DNA from: the human T2T-CHM13v2.0 reference genome, Homo sapiens
NCBI RefSeq assembly: GCF_009914755.1
Contig: NC_060936.1
Reading direction: 5' to 3' (one strand)
DNA length: 64,000 nt
Shown one piece after another: positions 29,993 through 46,700 of this stretch (position 1 is the first letter of the stretch; the number at the start of each line of letters is the position of its first letter). The notes under the pieces were generated by a model, which saw only the letters and a program-made list of their open reading frames with translations, did no database searches and was not told where the DNA came from. The translations under genes were made by a program, and so were the position numbers.

Positions 29993-30179
29993 TATTGCTG
30001 TAGCTGCCATCTACCCTGACTAATCTTTATAAAATATATGAAACCAATTTTTGTTGGTTTTTAAAATATAAACTTTGTTAATATTTTAATATAATATAAA
30101 TATTATATTTATTTAAATATAAAATATAGTTTTGTTGGTTTTTAAAATATAAAAAACCAAAAAGGCTTTTTATTTTTTC

Positions 30180-40059: not shown

Positions 40060-41585
40060 TTTTTTTTAAATTTCAAATTTTATTGTCAATTAAAGAGTAC
40101 ACATGCACATTTGTTACATGGGTAAATTGCGTGACATTCTGGCTTGGGGTTCTAATGATTCCATCACCCAGACAGTAAGCATAGTACCCAACAGGTGGTT
40201 CTCCAGCTTATGCCCCACTCGCCCCCTCACCTTCTAGTGGTCTCCAGTGTTTATTGTTCCCATTTTTATGTTCATGTGTATTTATTGTTTATCACTTGCT
40301 TATAAATGAGAATATGGACTATTTGTTTTTCTGTTCTTGCATTATTAATTTGCTTAGGTTAATGGCCTCCAGCTCCATCCATGTTGCTGCAAAGGACAAG
40401 ATTTTGTTCTTTTTTATGGCTGCATAGTATTCCATGGTGTAAATGTACATTTTCTTTATTCAATGCACCATTGATGGGTACCTAAGCTGATGCCATATCT
40501 TTCCTATTGTGAACTGTATTGCAATGAACATACAGGTGTGTGCATCTTTGATAGAATGAATTATTTTCCTTTAAGTATATACCAGTATACCCAAAGTAGT
40601 AGGATGACTGAGTCTAATGGTAGCTGTATTTTAAGTTCTTCGAGAAATCTCTAAACAGCTTTCTAGAGTGGCTGAACTAGTTTGCGTTCCCACTGACAGT
40701 GTATAAGCCTTCCCTTTTCTCTACAGTCCCAACCACATTTGTTGTTTTTTGACTTTTTAATAGCCATTATGATTGGTGTGAGATTATTTTACGGTTTTGA
40801 TTTGCATTTTTCTGATGATAATGTGATATGATGATAGTGATAATGAGTAATTTTTTCATATGTTTGTTGGCCACTTGCACATCCTCTTTTGAGATATGTC
40901 TGGTTCATGTCCTTTGCTCACTTTTTAATTAGATTTTTGTTGTCGTTGCTTTTGCTGGTTGATTTGTTTAAGTTCCTTGTAGATTCTGGATATTAGACCT
41001 TTGTCAGATGCAAAGTTTGTAAATATTTTCTCCCATTCTGTAGGCTGTTTACTCTGTTGGTAATTTCTTTCGCTGTGCAGAAGCTCTTTAGTTTAATTAG
41101 GCTCCACTTGTCAATTTTTGGTTTTGTTGCATTGCTTTTGGGGACTCAGCCATAAATTCTTTAGCAAAGCCTATGTTGAGAAGGGTATTTCCCAGGTTTT
41201 CTTCTAGGATTTTTATTGTTTGAAGCCTTATATTTAAAGTTTTAATCCATTTTGAGTTAATTTTTGTGTATGATGAGAAGTTGGGGCACAGTTTTAATCT
41301 TCCACATATGGCTAGCCAGTTATCCCAGCACGATTTATTGAATGGGAAGTTCTTTTTCTTTTGCTTATTTTTGTTAATTTTGTTGAAGATCAGATGGTTA
41401 TAGGTGTGCAAATTTATTTCTAGATTTTCTACTCTATTTCACTAGTTTATGTGTCTGTTTCTTGTACTGTTTTATTATTATTATTATTTACTATGCCTTA
41501 TGGAGCAGGCTAACCCATGGTCAATGTGCCCAGAGTTGCACCATGCTATTTTGATTACTGTAGCCTTATAGTATAATTTGAAGTA
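40060..41585 (-). mobile_element. 5'-truncated L1PA15/16 LINE-1
   Basis: 3'UTR gttacatgggtaaattgcgtgac...gtaagcatagtacccaac; ORF2 remnant 41097-41411; nested insert at 41470-41539. Confidence 0.88.
41470..41539 (-). mobile_element. 50-nt tailed small-RNA-like retroposon nested in L1
   Basis: Non-L1 GCAACTCTGGGCACATTGACCATGGGTTAGCCTGCTCCATAAGGCATAGT plus (AAT)n tail, interrupting L1 consensus gtac|accatgct. Confidence 0.7.
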
Positions 41586-42526
41586 TTATTGTTAAACAGA
41601 AAATGTTATTAGTCTTTCAGAAGGAAAGTTATTCATTCAAAATATTGGCTTGATGAACTTTGTAGCTATAAAGCCTGAAATTACAATGAAATAAAATCTG
41701 TATCTTTGTCAATCCATGGGATACATTAATGCCTCAATTTGATGATCTGCTCTGTTTTGTTATTATATACATATTTTATAAGCAGGAGTCATCAGAGCAT
41801 AAAACGTATCTATCTTTACAACATAATATTTAGGTGGTATACATGTTTGATTGAGAGGCTACAGTGAACCTGTCTTTACAATTTGAAAATTCTCATTTCA
41901 AAAGCTCATGTTCTGCCTTCTTTTTGTTTCAATTTCTTATATCTTAATTTTTAAAATAGTTTATATCCATGTATCAAAAAGTAGGCATCTTAGGTCACCA
42001 CACTGGTAACAAATTTCAATGTTGTAATATACTTCTATGACATTTACTAAATGGGTGAGCTGTGGTTTTTATTTTATATTTTACGTTATTTATGGACTCT
42101 TGTATTGAACCCTTCAATTTAAAAAACATAAACAACAGAGTCTGACTTTAAGTAATCGCAGAATCCTCAAAAATGTGCTATAAAATGTTTACTTTTAAAG
42201 TTAAAAATAAATTATTCCTTAGTAGTGTTAATATATATGAAAATAATAATATCTATTTGAACTCATATGCTAGAGATGTGTGACTATCAGACTTATGCTT
42301 GTGTGACTGTCTTATGGATTTGTTCTGATCTGGTATCTCCACACCTAATTCTCTCACTCGGTTCTATTATTTTTTTGGCCAACATAGCCAGTTAGTTAAT
42401 CAATACATTTTTATTCACAAAGGGAAATCTTTGGCATAAGTTAAGATGTTCAATAGTCTGCCCTATTAACTTCATTCTTCTTTAAGGTGTGGCTTTATGG
42501 TTGTTCTTGTGAAAAACCCTACTGTG

Positions 42527-42761
42527 GCATCTTAAATCTTTTTTTTTCTCAGTTGGTATTGTATCTGAGAGCAGTTTTGGGGTACAGTACTTATGCATTA
42601 TATACCTTCCCATCCAAAGACTAGCCTGACAAGATGTTACAGAGGATGAGTTTTCATCAGGTTCTTCAGAGGTGGAGCTCTGTGCCAATACTCCTGCTGC
42701 TTGACTTATGATATCTTTATAAAGTTGAATAAACTGGTATAAATTCATTAAAAAAAAAAAA
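42527..42761 (+). mobile_element. L1-machinery retroposed non-repetitive segment (orphan transduction or antisense retrocopy)
   Basis: 16-bp perfect TSD GAAAAACCCTACTGTG at 42511-42526 and 42762-42777; AATAAA at 42728-42733; A12 tail at 42750-42761. Confidence 0.93.
42606..42748 (-). pseudogene. RNF141: Fragment of an RNF141 (ZNF230) coding exon, about aa 98-145, with its native splice donor and about 79 nt of presumed intron
   Basis: [48 protein letters not shown] matches recalled human RNF141 (one change, T>I); homology stops at AG|GTATAT (42606/42605) rather than continuing VKQLTDEEECC. Confidence 0.88.
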
Positions 42762-43565
42762 GAAAAACCCTACTGTGTTTATGGCTTTAGTGAATTGCTG
42801 AAGTTAATTTCCCAGCAACCTGTAGAACAAGTACAGAAGAAAAGTGGTGCTCCTCAGTTTTATGTTAACTTATTTTTTCTAAATCTCTCTAGTCTAATCC
42901 CTTTATTCTTAGTCATTAAAGAAATGGCCAAAAAAACTATCATGCACAATAATTTTAAAAAATGAAGCTAGCTTCCCAGGGCTTGAAAATGTCTTAGCTG
43001 TATTAAGTTCAATCAATTTGAACAACAAATCATCAGTACTTTTTTTAATCGTAGAGTGAATTAATTAGTATTTTCAGTTGTGCTTTTTTCAACAGAGTAA
43101 TTAGTCTTTCACATAGCATTCTCTTTGATGAAATGTTCTGGGGCTGGTGTCTGCTATAGAATCACCTCTGCCCTGAATTATGCTCTTTGTTCCACAAGTT
43201 TCAGGGTAGGCTGCACAGTGCCTTTGACTACTTCATTTATACAATATAAATTTATTCCTTGGCTTATTCTCAAGTGCATGCATTTATGACCTATAGAAAA
43301 TGCTATATTCCTTTCTTTGAAAGAATAATCAATATAGAAAATGTAGCCTCTGTCCGTAACACAACTAGAAAGACCCCTACTCCCCCCAGAAAGACTGTTT
43401 GGCTTCAGTTTCCTAAATCTTTAAGAAGAGCATCACAAATTAAACAAATATGTTCTAAAAGTTGAATTGTGGAAAATATTGTAGTAAATGACATCACTTC
43501 AGTTAGGTGGCTAGGTATGCATAAGCATTTTGGAAATTTTACTTAGCTTCAATGTTTCTGACTAC

Positions 43566-43727
43566 TAACAAAGATTCTTCCCTTAACCAAACTTTGATCA
43601 GGTTCTTCTGAGTTCTCATTGTAACTAGGACTTGGCTTTTGGGCTTCTGTGTTTGTCTCTCCATTGTCCAGTTTTAGCCAGAATCCTGCTAACTCAGTTT
43701 AACTGGAATTTCCCATCCTCGCTATCT
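43566..43727 (+). mobile_element. MER31-like ERV1 LTR, 5' third only
   Basis: acaaagattcttcccttaaccaaactttgatcagg...gttttagccagaatcctgctaactcagttta; cut off by L1. Confidence 0.75.
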
Positions 43728-46700
43728 AACTAAGCTTCATAAGCGAAGGAGACATAAAATCCTTTCCAGACAAGCAAACGTGGAGGGGTTTTGTCATCAT
43801 CAGGCCTGCCTTGCAAGACCTCCTGAAGGAAGCACTAAATATGGAAAGAAAAAACCAGTACCAGCCACCGCAAAAACACACCAAAATATAAAGACCAATG
43901 TCACTATGAAGAAACGGCATCAACTAGTGTGCAAAATAACCAGATAGCATCATGATGACAGGATCAAATTCACACATAATAATACTAACCTTAAATGTAA
44001 ATGGGCTAAATGCCCCAATTAAAAGATACAGACTGGCAAATTGGATAAACAGTCAAGACCCATTGGTGTGCAGTATTCAGGAGACCCATCTCACATGCAA
44101 AGACACACATAGGCTCAAAATAAAGGAATGGAGGAATATTTACTAAGCAAATGGAAAGCAAAAAAAAAAAAAAAGAACAAAAAAACAAAAAAAATCAGGG
44201 GTTGCAATCCTAGTCTCTGACAAAACAGACATTAAACCAACAAAGATCAAAAAAAGATAAAGAAAAGTATTACATAATGGTAAAGGGAACAATTAAACAA
44301 GAAGAACTATCTTAAATATATATGGATCCAATACAGGAGCACCCAGATTCATAAAACAAGTTCTTAGAGACCTACAAAGAGATTTAGACTCCTACACAAT
44401 AATAATGGGAGACATTAACACTCCACTCTCAATATCAGACAGATCGATGAGACAGAAAATTAACAAGGATATTCAGGACTTGAACTCAGCTCTGGATCAA
44501 GAGGACATCTACAGAACTCTCCACCCCAAATCAACAGAATATGTTCTTCTCAGTGCCACATGGCACTTATTCTAAAATTGACCACGTGATTTGAAGTAAA
44601 ACACTCAGCAAATGCAGAAGAACTGAAATCATAACAAACAGTCTCTCAGACCACAGTGCATTCAAATTAGAACTCAGGATTAAGAAACTCACTCAAAACC
44701 AAACAATTACATAGAAATTGAACAACCTGCTCCTGAATGACTCCTGGTAAATAACTAAATTAAGGCAGAAATCAGGAAGTTCTTTGAAACCAATGAAAAC
44801 AAAGAGACAATGTACCAGAATCTCTGGGACACAGCTAAAGCATTGTTAAGAGGGAAATTTATAGCACTGAATGCCCATATCAGAAAGCCAGAAAGATCTC
44901 AAATCATCGCCCTAACATCACAATTAAAAGCGATAGAAAAAAGCCAACTAATCCAAAAACTAGCAGAAGACAAGAAATATCTAAGATCAGAGCAGAATTA
45001 AAGGAGATAGAAACATGAAAAACCCTCCAAAAAATCAATGAATCCCAGAGATGGTTTTTTTAAAAACTTAACAAAATAGACCACTAGCTAGAAGAATAAA
45101 GAAGAAAAGAGAGAAGAATCAAACAGACACAATAAAATATGATAAAGGCAATATAACCACTCACCCCACAGTAATACAAACTACCATCAGAGAATACTAT
45201 AAACACCTCTACACAAATAAACTAGAAAATCTAGAAGAAATGGATAAATTCCTGGACATGTATACCCTCCCAATACTAAACCAGGAAGAAGTAAAAAACC
45301 TGAATAGACCAATAAGAAGTACTGAAATTGAACCAATAATTAACAGCCTACCAACCAAAAGAAGCCCAGGACCAGACAGATTCACAGCCGAATTCTACCA
45401 GAGGTACAAAGAGGAGCCAGTACCATTCCTTCTGAAACTATTCCAAACAACTGAAAAGGAGGGACTCCTCCCTAAATCATTTTATGAAGTGAGCATCATC
45501 CTTGTAACAAAACTTGGCAGAGACACAACCAAAAAAAAAGAAAACTTCAGGCCTATATCCCTGATGAACATCGATGTGAAAATCCTCAATAAAATACTGA
45601 CATACAGAATCCAGCAGCATGTCAACAAACTTATCCACTACAATCAAGTCAGCTGCATCTCTGGGATGCAAGGCTTGTTCAACATATGAAAATCAATAAA
45701 CATAATCCATCACATAAACAGAACCAAAGACAAAAACCACATGATTATCTCAATAGATTGAAAAAAAGTCCTTTGATAAAATTCAACAGCCCTTCATGTA
45801 AAATCTTAATAAACTAGGTGTTGATGGAAGATATCTCAAAATAACAAGAGCTAAGTATGACAAACCCACAGCCAATATCATATTAAATGGGCAAAAGCCG
45901 GAAGCATTCCCTTTGAAAACTGGCATAAGACAAGGATGCCCTCTCTCACCACTCCTATTCAACACAGTATTGGAAGTTCTGGCCAGGGCAATCAGGCAAG
46001 AGAAAGAAATAAAGCCTATTCAAATAGAAAGAGAGCAAGTCAAATTGTCTCTATTTGTAGACAATATGATTCTATATTTAGAAAACCCCACCATCTCAGC
46101 CCAAAAACTCTTTAAGCTGATAAGCAATTTCAGCAAAGTCTCAGGATACAAAATCAATGTGCACAAATCACAAGCATTCCTATACATCAACAGTAGGGAA
46201 GCAGAGAACCAAATCATGAATGAACTCCCAATCACAATTCCTACAAAGAGAATAAAATACATAGCAATACAGCTAACAAGGGATGTGATAGACCTCTTCA
46301 AGGGGAATTACAAATCACCACTCAAGGAAATGAGAGAGGACACAAACAAATGGAAAAACATTCCATCCTTATGGACAGGAAGAATCAGTATTGTGAAAAT
46401 GGCCATACTGCCCAAAGTAATTTATAGTTCCAATGCTATTCCCATCAAACTACCATTGACATTCTTCACAGAATCAGAAGAAACTACCTTAAATTTCATA
46501 TGGAATCAAAGGAGACCCCATATAGCCAAGACAATCCTAAGCAAAGAGAACAAAGCTGGAGAGCTGGAGTCATTATGCTACCTGACTTCAAACCATACTA
46601 CAAGGCTACAATAATCAAACAGCATGATACTGGTACCAAAACAGACATACAAACATGGAACAGAATAGAGACCTCAGAAATAACACCACACATCTACAAC

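What the first reader, a model, noticed from the sequence alone, without database searches (positions are those of the whole stretch)
42511..42777. Antisense, unspliced RNF141 exon-intron junction retrotransposed by L1 machinery (orphan 3' transduction / exon-shuffling event)
Seen: a 235-bp insert between perfect 16-bp TSDs, ending AATAAA, 16 nt, then A12 on the + strand. These are hallmarks of target-primed reverse transcription, yet the insert has no L1/Alu/SVA sequence. The opposite strand encodes 48 aa matching RNF141 as I recall it (about aa 98-145, one substitution). Homology stops at AG|GTATAT and runs into 79 nt of non-coding sequence. This is therefore not a normal processed pseudogene: the polyadenylated RNA was antisense to RNF141, crossed an intron/exon boundary, and used an AATAAA hidden in the antisense of the codons for F-I. 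Inference: the source is either read-through from an antisense-oriented L1/SVA in the RNF141 intron (5'-truncated to an orphan) or an unannotated germline antisense transcript. The perfect TSD and low divergence suggest a young event.
Basis: partly seen in the sequence, partly recalled or inferred. Interest (0 to 1): 0.9.

Follow-up and report, generated by a model that had tools for sequence, protein, structure and literature searches.

The report
Twin-primed L1 retrocopy of RNF141-antisense RNA
A 235-bp piece of chromosome 11, copied from an RNA that ran backwards through an RNF141 exon and its intron, was pasted into a gene-poor part of chromosome 12 by the LINE-1 copying machinery; this is an ordinary, apparently harmless event of a kind already described.

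Summary
Perfect 16-bp target-site duplications (42511-42526, 42762-42777) flank a 235-bp insert that ends AATAAA, 16 nt, A12. Its minus strand encodes RNF141 residues 98-145 with one substitution (T111I).

The insert matches only one other place in the genome, the RNF141 locus on chr11, and it matches in two pieces. Window 42583-42748 equals chr11:10609642-10609807 on the + strand (164/166 identical). Window 42527-42583 equals chr11:10609576-10609518 on the opposite strand. The 65 nt between the pieces are missing, and both junctions show microhomology. This is the signature of twin priming during L1 target-primed reverse transcription.

The template was an unspliced, polyadenylated RNA antisense to RNF141, cleaved about 15 nt after an AATAAA formed by the antisense of the Phe-Ile codons.

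An orphan L1/SVA transduction is not supported. In CHM13, the 30 kb upstream on that strand holds only one decayed L1 ORF2 fragment and no SVA hexamer run, and no sibling copies exist. Exon shuffling is not supported either, because no gene lies at the target. The age is loosely bounded at roughly 1.4-58 Myr.

The insert meets every testable criterion of the described "class 1 templated sequence insertions". It is a new member of a known kind and of low to moderate interest.

The parts
42511..42526 (+). 5' target-site duplication GAAAAACCCTACTGTG. The bottom-strand nick site reads 5'-TTTTTC/ACAAG-3', a TTTC/A L1 endonuclease motif.
   Evidence: motif list in PMC12016303 Table 1 legend
42527..42583 (-). 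Inverted (internally primed) cDNA segment. It equals chr11:10609576-10609518 read on the chr11 minus strand, which is RNF141 intron. It differs by 1 substitution (42571) and a T9 versus T11 run. TGT of the TSD end overlaps the source sequence at the priming site.
42583..42605 (+). Start of the poly(A)-primed cDNA segment: 23 nt of RNF141 intron directly adjoining the exon's splice donor, in antisense orientation. It has 1 substitution (42587). The T at 42583 is shared 1-nt microhomology at the inversion junction.
42606..42748 (+). Antisense copy of 143 nt of the third coding exon of RNF141 (chr11:10609665-10609807). The minus strand encodes aa 98-145. It has 1 substitution (42708, T111I).
42728..42733 (+). 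AATAAA polyadenylation hexamer, the antisense of codons TTT ATT (F103 I104). The same hexamer is present at the chr11 source.
42749..42761 (+). One unmatched T followed by the non-templated A12 tail. The chr11 source continues GATCCG here, not A-rich.
42762..42777 (+). 3' target-site duplication

Best explanation
This is a retrocopy made by the LINE-1 ORF2 protein acting in trans on a non-L1 cellular RNA.

Shown:
- The template RNA ran along the chr11 + strand, antisense to RNF141.
- It was colinear with genomic DNA (unspliced) over at least chr11:10609518-10609807.
- It carried a non-templated poly(A) tail added about 15 nt after an AATAAA that lies in the antisense of RNF141 codons F103-I104.
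- On chr12 the bottom strand was nicked at 5'-TTTC/A-3'.

Inferred from the anatomy (the twin-priming model):
- The poly(A) tail was primed there, and the first cDNA was copied back to chr11:10609642.
- The top strand was cut 16 nt away. Its 3' end (...CTGTG) annealed inside the same RNA at chr11:10609577-80 by three Watson-Crick pairs plus a G-U pair.
- From there a second cDNA was primed, covering 10609576 back to 10609518.
- Joining the two cDNAs at a single shared T left a 5' inverted piece, a 65-nt gap and intact 16-bp TSDs.

Inferred without direct evidence:
- The RNA was a low-level Pol II antisense transcript. It arose either from a cryptic start inside RNF141 or as read-through from the convergent upstream gene AMPD3.
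- It was present in germline or early-embryo cells, where L1 is active.
- The insert has no function at its gene-poor target.
For: Insertion hallmarks:
- A perfect 16-bp TSD, one of only 3 such repeats in the 64-kb window against a mean of 0.1 in 50 shuffles.
- AATAAA, 16 nt, then A12, while the source continues GATCCG.
- The nick site matches TTTC/A, one of the three EN motifs used in PMC12016303 (passages read).

Source and structure:
- The own-genome DNA search scored 2 of 2 first-look candidates. Apart from the chr12 site itself it found only chr11, as two pieces on opposite strands.
- Local alignment gives 164/166 identity for the 3' piece. The inverted piece has 1 substitution and a 2-nt T-run difference, and there is microhomology at both junctions.
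- The flanks do not match chr11.

Source identity:
- The chr11 exon translation hit 204 proteins with E <= 0.001 among 232 candidates. Nearly all the named rows among the 120 listed are 'RING finger protein 141'.
- A 230-aa orthologue maps to 5 coding exons on the chr11 minus strand.
- The window peptide aligns to M98-R145.

Precedent:
- 5' inversions occur in 3 of 23 polymorphic processed pseudogenes and in 18-22% of L1 insertions. In 132 of 287 inversions the two cDNAs lie within 20 bp of each other, so larger gaps are common (PMC12016303).
- Class 1 templated sequence insertions have the same four hallmarks, and their templates include non-annotated intronic or intergenic sequence (PMC5110952).
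Against: - No transcript data were available, so neither the antisense RNA nor use of its poly(A) site is shown directly.
- The extra T at 42749 is not templated by chr11.
- The nick site is a variant (TTTC/A), not the main TTTT/A consensus.
- Against AMPD3 read-through specifically: 30 AATAAA and 23 ATTAAA hexamers lie on the + strand in the 19,431 nt between the AMPD3 stop region and the site used.
- Against a strong local promoter: 0 of 40 500-bp windows in chr11:10590000-10610000 look like a CpG island.
- Twin priming leaves the RNA's 5' end unknown.
Confidence: 0.85

Rival explanations
1. Orphan 3' transduction. Read-through from an L1 or SVA lying antisense in RNF141 used the exon's antisense AATAAA, and severe 5' truncation (here with twin priming) left only transduced sequence.
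For: - An L1 ORF2-derived fragment does lie on the chr11 + strand at 10602269-10602767, about 6.8 kb upstream.
- Orphan transductions are a described class: unique sequence downstream of an active L1, mobilised without the L1 (PMC7058536, passages read).
- The source element could be non-reference or since lost.
Against: - The chr11 L1 fragment is only 43-52% aa identical to a long-ORF L1, is internally deleted and is full of stops.
- blastn of that L1 copy against the 40-kb chr11 stretch found 0 hits at 1e-5.
- tblastn with L1 ORF1 and ORF2 found no other L1 coding remnant on either strand in chr11:10579518-10619517. There were 3 HSPs, all belonging to the one fragment.
- There were 0 SVA-type hexamer runs.
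- No sibling copies share the sequence: 2 of 2 candidates scored, and only chr12 and chr11 were found.
- Non-coding L1 parts (UTRs) of old families would not have been seen by these tests.
Confidence: 0.1
2. Sub-hypothesis on the RNA's origin: read-through ('downstream-of-gene') transcription from AMPD3. AMPD3 converges on RNF141 and lies on the same strand as the template RNA.
For: - The C-terminal end of the Pfam AMP_deaminase domain (profile positions 577-630 of 630, E 1.8e-20) lies at chr11:10590093-10590356 on the + strand. That is about 19 kb upstream of the captured segment. It was the only Pfam hit among 94 + strand ORFs sent.
- The RNF141 coding exons lie on the minus strand, so the two genes converge.
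Against: - 53 canonical or near-canonical poly(A) hexamers would have to be bypassed.
- No expression data were available.
- The AMPD3 name rests on the Pfam domain plus my recall of the gene order. The 87 ORFs of L008 were not scanned.
Confidence: 0.25
3. A DNA-level event: a class 2 templated insertion (break-repair patch) or replication template switching copied two chr11 fragments into chr12.
For: - There are two fragments in opposite orientation with microhomology at the junctions.
- Class 2 insertions show microhomology (PMC5110952).
Against: - Class 2 events lack a TSD, a poly(A) tail and a poly(A) signal. All three are present here.
- The A12 is not templated at the source.
- The copy ends about 15 nt after an AATAAA.
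Confidence: 0.02
4. A Pol III transcript started in the sense-oriented Alu about 630 bp upstream (chr11:10608605-10608889) and read through into the flank.
For: An Alu-like 5' motif and an A13 run lie on the + strand at that place.
Against: - Two T4 tracts (Pol III terminators, from general knowledge) lie between the Alu and the end point.
- The end has Pol II-type features: AATAAA plus a non-templated tail about 15 nt later.
Confidence: 0.02

Closest known systems
Class 1 templated sequence insertions / polymorphisms (TSI/TSIP; Onozawa and Aplan, review PMC5110952; abstract and parts 1-2 of 4 read)
   Same: - A TSD, a non-templated A tail and an AATAAA 10-20 nt upstream ('cryptic' poly(A) signal).
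- An L1 endonuclease-type target site.
- A template that is non-annotated intronic sequence from a distant chromosome.
- An intact donor locus.
   Different: - Whether this insert is polymorphic in humans is not known; it is present in the T2T-CHM13 reference.
- It also carries a twin-priming inversion and part of a coding exon in antisense. The parts of that review I read do not mention either feature.
Twin-primed (5'-inverted) L1 insertions and processed pseudogenes (model of Ostertag and Kazazian 2001, seen only as reference 14 of PMC12016303; statistics from PMC12016303, sections read)
   Same: - A poly(A)-primed non-inverted 3' cDNA plus an internally primed inverted 5' cDNA from the adjacent upstream part of the same RNA.
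- A gap between the two cDNAs.
- An intact TSD.
   Different: - The template is neither L1 nor a spliced mRNA.
- Both cDNAs are very short (166 and 57 nt, against medians of 253-751 bp in that study).
Orphan L1 3' transduction (definition in PMC7058536, passages read)
   Same: Unique non-L1 sequence with a poly(A) tail and TSD, mobilised by L1 and ending at a downstream poly(A) signal.
   Different: The defining feature, a donor lying just downstream of an active L1, was tested here and not met in this genome. No siblings were found.
Processed pseudogene / retrocopy of a non-coding Pol II RNA (e.g. microRNA host-gene retrocopies, PMC7692494, passages read)
   Same: - L1-mediated copy of a polyadenylated Pol II transcript.
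- The retrocopy serves as a fossil record of how a locus was transcribed.
   Different: - The insert is antisense to the protein-coding gene.
- It retains the intron and has no exon-exon junction.
- It covers only 222 nt of template.

Membership tests
L1-mediated class 1 templated sequence insertion | Duplication of recipient sequence of at least 5 bp at both junctions (TSD) | tested here: met
   A 16-bp perfect repeat. It is rare in the window and in shuffles.
L1-mediated class 1 templated sequence insertion | Non-templated run of about 10-40 A at the 3' end | tested here: met
   A12 at 42750-42761. The chr11 source continues GATCCG.
L1-mediated class 1 templated sequence insertion | AATAAA 10-20 nt upstream of the A tract, present in the donor | tested here: met
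   AATAAA at 42728-42733, 16 nt before the tail. The same hexamer is on chr11.
L1-mediated class 1 templated sequence insertion | Insertion at an L1 endonuclease-type site (5'-TTTT/A-3' or close variant) | tested here: met
   The bottom strand reads 5'-TTTTTC/ACAAG-3'. TTTC/A is one of three accepted motifs in PMC12016303. It is a variant, not the main consensus.
L1-mediated class 1 templated sequence insertion | Donor sequence from a distant locus that remains intact | tested here: met
   The chr11 RNF141 locus is intact and carries the 65 nt missing from the copy.
L1-mediated class 1 templated sequence insertion | Polymorphic presence/absence among humans (for the 'P' in TSIP) | not testable with these tools
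   Only one human genome is held. No pangenome or primate assemblies are available.
Twin-priming 5' inversion | The 5' part is inverted relative to the poly(A)-bearing 3' part, and both come from one RNA with the inverted part lying upstream in the RNA | tested here: met
   Window 42527-42583 equals chr11:10609576-10609518 on the minus strand. Window 42583-42748 equals chr11:10609642-10609807 on the plus strand.
Twin-priming 5' inversion | Complementarity between the 3' end of the top-strand TSD and the RNA at the internal priming site | tested here: met
   The TGT of TSD end TGTG matches the source TGTA next to the first copied base, and the fourth position would be a G-U pair. Four nucleotides is short and could be chance.
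Orphan L1/SVA 3' transduction | Donor sequence lies just downstream of an active (full-length) L1 or SVA in the same orientation | tested here: not met
   The 30 kb upstream holds one decayed, internally deleted ORF2 remnant 6.8 kb away (43-52% aa identity) and no SVA hexamer run. Non-reference elements were not testable.
Orphan L1/SVA 3' transduction | Sibling insertions carrying the same transduced tag | tested here: not met
   The own-genome search scored 2 of 2 candidates and found only chr12 and chr11.
Processed pseudogene of RNF141 | Copy of the spliced sense mRNA (exon-exon junctions, poly(A) at the mRNA 3' end) | tested here: not met
   The poly(A) is on the strand antisense to the RNF141 reading frame. 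The copy crosses the exon's splice donor into the intron. No other RNF141 exon is present.
Segmental (DNA-mediated) duplication | Homology continues beyond the insert into the flanks | tested here: not met
   A 1,301-bp query spanning the insert matched chr11 only between query positions 524 and 749, that is, within 4 nt of the TSD boundaries.
Exon shuffling by retrotransposition | The captured exon lands in, or is used by, a gene at the target | tested here: not met
   The hub table lists no gene in the window. The 95-aa ORF over the insert has no Pfam family. Expression was not testable.

The most novel reading that the evidence does not exclude
The retrocopy may be a fossil of a recurrent, germline-expressed, polyadenylated antisense RNA of the testis-expressed gene RNF141. 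That RNA would end at a cryptic poly(A) site created by the conserved Phe-Ile codons (TTT ATT) inside a coding exon. It might be fed by convergent read-through from AMPD3 and might take part in sense/antisense regulation of RNF141 in germ cells. On this reading the coding sequence of RNF141 would be constrained on both strands.
Probability: 0.15. Interest if true: 0.45.

Novelty: new member of a known kind. Interest (0 to 1): 0.25.

Why it matters
- **Teaching example.** The insert shows L1 acting in trans on a non-genic RNA with every hallmark intact: TSD, endonuclease site, a poly(A) tail after a cryptic signal, and a twin-priming inversion with microhomology.
- **Record of transcription.** It shows that the strand opposite RNF141 was once transcribed and polyadenylated inside a coding exon, in cells that contribute to the germline.
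- **Annotation.** Retrocopy pipelines that rely on exon-exon junctions miss such inserts (a limitation noted in PMC7692494 and PMC5470649, passages read). No gene or pseudogene is annotated in the window.
- **Consequence.** No functional effect at the chr12 site is expected.

Tried and rejected
- **Pfam on the 95-aa ORF over the insert:** 0 families at E <= 1.
- **Rfam on window 41000-44500:** 0 matches at gathering score, so there is no snRNA or SINE chimera.
- **Paralogous 'empty site' search:** the 1.3-kb flanks are single-copy at the search's sensitivity, so no paralogue could serve as an empty-site proxy.
- **Pfam on chr11 + strand ORFs:** all 94 stop-to-stop ORFs of 40 aa or more in L006 and L007 were sent. 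Only the AMPD3 C-terminus hit, and no L1 domains were found.
- **Read-through of the L1-like stretch:** reading L006:1600-4004 in 3 frames with X at stops gave 0 Pfam families. L1 identity was shown instead by 83,179 first-look genome candidates (150 scored, all matching) and BLASTP to a Pfam-labelled L1 ORF2.
- **ORF1-like stretch:** what I saw by eye in the printout was not confirmed. tblastn gave 0 ORF1 hits at 1e-3.
- **Literature on an RNF141 antisense transcript:** searches were judged from listings, plus passages of one paper. Nothing relevant was found. This is a weak negative.
- **Ostertag and Kazazian 2001:** not held, so its details are recalled.
- **Rejected readings:** segmental duplication, processed pseudogene and exon shuffling. 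Reasons are given under Membership tests.

Full report
**1. What is there**

The window reads ...cttgt GAAAAACCCTACTGTG [235-bp insert] GAAAAACCCTACTGTG tttatgg....
- The two 16-mers at 42511-42526 and 42762-42777 are identical.
- The insert ends with AATAAA (42728-42733), then 16 nt (42734-42749), then A12 (42750-42761).
- In the whole 64-kb window only 3 exact direct repeats of 16 nt or more occur at 50-1000 bp spacing. The other two are a local 24-mer and an Alu-internal repeat.
- Fifty block-wise shuffles gave a mean of 0.1 and a maximum of 2 such repeats.
- The repeat boundaries also coincide to the base with the limits of foreign sequence (section 2), so chance is not a serious option.

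**2. Where the insert came from**

A DNA search of the window's own genome (T2T-CHM13) with the 235 bp scored 2 of 2 first-look candidates. It returned the site itself plus two matches on chr11:
- 10609642-10609807 on the + strand (query 57-222, 99% identity);
- 10609518-10609576 on the minus strand (query 1-57, 95% identity).

A 1,301-bp query spanning the insert gave the same two chr11 pieces and nothing for the flanks. The flanks are therefore single-copy and unrelated to chr11, which rules out a segmental duplication.

Local alignment gives these details:
- Window 42583-42748 equals chr11:10609642-10609807 with 164/166 matches. The differences are at 42587 and 42708.
- Window 42527-42583 equals the reverse complement of chr11:10609518-10609576. 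It has one substitution (42571) and a T9 versus T11 run.
- The 65 nt at chr11:10609577-10609641 are absent from the copy.
- The two pieces share a single T at their junction (42583).
- At the 5' junction, the last bases of the TSD (TGTG) resemble the source bases next to the first copied base (TGTA).
- After 10609807 the chr11 sequence reads GATCCGTGATG, so the A12 is not templated.

**3. Identity of the source**

- The chr11 exon that overlaps the 3' piece translates to a 60-aa peptide.
- That peptide found 204 proteins with E <= 0.001 among 232 candidates. Of the 120 listed, nearly all the named rows are 'RING finger protein 141'. Exceptions are some unnamed or 'hypothetical' rows, one fusion model and one metagenome protein labelled 'phage protein D'.
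- A 230-aa orthologue maps to five coding segments on the chr11 minus strand (72 of 72 candidates scored, 10 matches). The segments are aa 1-50, 49-108 (65% identity), 84-146, 144-182 and 179-230.
- The same search also matched chr12:38482602-38482751, which is the insert. Four weak hits elsewhere had E values of 2.5e-4 to 8.4e-4.
- The window peptide (42605-42748, minus strand) aligns to M98-R145 with one change, T111I.
- The RNF141 frame is on the window's minus strand and the poly(A) tail is on the plus strand. The copied RNA was therefore antisense to RNF141.
- The copy runs through the exon's GT donor into the intron, so the RNA was unspliced.

**4. Mechanism**

Every hallmark of L1 target-primed reverse transcription is present:
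- a 16-bp TSD;
- a non-templated A tail;
- a poly(A) signal 16 nt before the tail;
- a bottom-strand nick site 5'-TTTTTC/ACAAG-3'. TTTC/A is one of the three endonuclease motifs accepted in PMC12016303 (Table 1 legend).

The opposite orientation of the 5' 57 nt is what the twin-priming model predicts. The relevant features are its origin just upstream in the same RNA, the gap between the two cDNAs and the short complementarity between the TSD's 3' end and the RNA.

The model is that of Ostertag and Kazazian 2001. I saw that paper only as reference 14 of PMC12016303, and the paper itself is not held.

In PMC12016303 (sections read):
- 5' inversions occur in 18-22% of L1 insertions and in 3 of 23 polymorphic processed pseudogenes;
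- only 132 of 287 inversions have the two cDNAs within 20 bp of each other, so a 65-nt gap is unremarkable.

The order of events in twin priming is inferred from the anatomy, not observed.

**5. Which RNA**

This is the open part. On the chr11 + strand, upstream of the captured segment, I found the following.
- **One L1 ORF2 remnant** at 10602269-10602767.
  - Its 99-aa ORF has 83,179 first-look candidates genome-wide; 150 were scored and all matched.
  - It is 46-52% identical to parts of a 1,192-aa frame that Pfam labels Exo_endo_phos plus RVT_1. That frame sits next to a Transposase_22 ORF1.
  - tblastn with those two proteins against chr11:10579518-10619517 gave 3 HSPs, all belonging to this fragment. 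blastn gave none, and no SVA hexamer run was seen.
  - The element is old, internally deleted, full of stops and 6.8 kb away.
- **The last coding exon of an AMP deaminase gene** at 10590093-10590356 on the + strand. It matches Pfam AMP_deaminase profile positions 577-630 of 630 (E 1.8e-20) and was the 1 hit among 94 ORFs sent. I take this to be AMPD3 from recalled gene order.

AMPD3 and RNF141 converge, so AMPD3 read-through is a possible source. However, 30 AATAAA and 23 ATTAAA hexamers lie in the intervening 19,431 nt. None of 40 500-bp windows looks like a CpG island.

No sibling copies exist. I therefore favour a low-abundance cryptic antisense Pol II RNA of unknown start. My estimates are:
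- about 0.25 for AMPD3 read-through;
- about 0.1 for an orphan transduction from a non-reference or lost element.

RNF141/ZNF230 is reported as testis-expressed and spermatogenesis-related (PMC9140377, passages read, citing Zhang 2001 and Song 2008). That fits transcription of the locus in germ cells, but it says nothing about the antisense strand.

**6. Age**

- There are 3 substitutions in 222 aligned nt, plus one homopolymer length change.
- I counted the exon part as evolving on the copy only and the intron parts on both lineages (303 site-lineages), or all parts on both lineages (444). This gives 0.007-0.010 substitutions per site, with a Poisson 95% range of 0.0014-0.029.
- At 0.5-1.0e-9 per site per year (general knowledge), the age is roughly 7-20 Myr, with limits of about 1.4-58 Myr.
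- The perfect TSD and pure A12 argue against great age. 'Young' in the sense of human-specific is not shown.

**7. Comparison with what is known**

The closest described class is the class 1 templated sequence insertion of Onozawa and Aplan (PMC5110952, abstract and parts 1-2 read).
- Its hallmarks are a TSD, a poly(A) tail after a cryptic AATAAA and a TTTT/A-type target.
- Its templates include non-annotated intronic or intergenic sequence.
- All testable criteria are met here. Polymorphism could not be tested.

The insert is not a processed pseudogene: it is antisense and retains the intron. It does not meet the defining feature of an orphan transduction in this genome. It is not exon shuffling, because the hub table lists no gene in the window and the ORF over the insert has no Pfam family.

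Retrocopies as records of unannotated Pol II transcripts have precedent (PMC7692494, passages read).

**8. Verdict**

The mechanism and the antisense, unspliced template are right. The contiguity prediction, the orphan-transduction headline and the exon-shuffling label are not.
- This is a new member of a known kind. Interest is about 0.25.

Noticed in passing
L007:576-839 (chr11:10590093-10590356, + strand): The C-terminal end of an AMP deaminase domain (Pfam PF19326, E 1.8e-20). An AMP deaminase gene therefore converges on RNF141, with the coding ends about 9 kb apart (RNF141's last coding exon is at chr11:10599394-10599549).
   Followed up: partly
L006:2752-3250 (chr11:10602269-10602767, + strand): A decayed, internally deleted L1 ORF2 remnant in RNF141's last intron, antisense to the gene. 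It ends about 740 bp before the next RNF141 exon upstream in the gene (aa 144-182).
   Followed up: yes
chr11:10608605-10608889 and 10610975-11269 (L002/L009): Two Alu-like 5' motifs, each with an A13-A15 run about 270-280 bp downstream, on the + strand flanking the source exon. They were identified only by a recalled motif with up to 3 mismatches.
   Followed up: no
proteins P0036 and P0037: Two metagenome-derived predicted proteins (106 and 147 aa; one labelled 'phage protein D' by its source) are 92% identical to the RNF141 exon peptide. They probably reflect mammalian host DNA in metagenome assemblies with a misleading label.
   Followed up: no
window 42482-42769, minus strand: A 95-aa stop-to-stop frame runs through the TSD, tail, exon copy, intron and inverted piece. 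It has no Pfam family and appears to be a by-product of copying part of an exon.
   Followed up: partly
window 30049-30072 and 30130-30153: An exact 24-nt direct repeat (TTTTGTTGGTTTTTAAAATATAAA) at 81-bp spacing, found in the repeat census. It is a possible small tandem duplication or another TSD pair.
   Followed up: no
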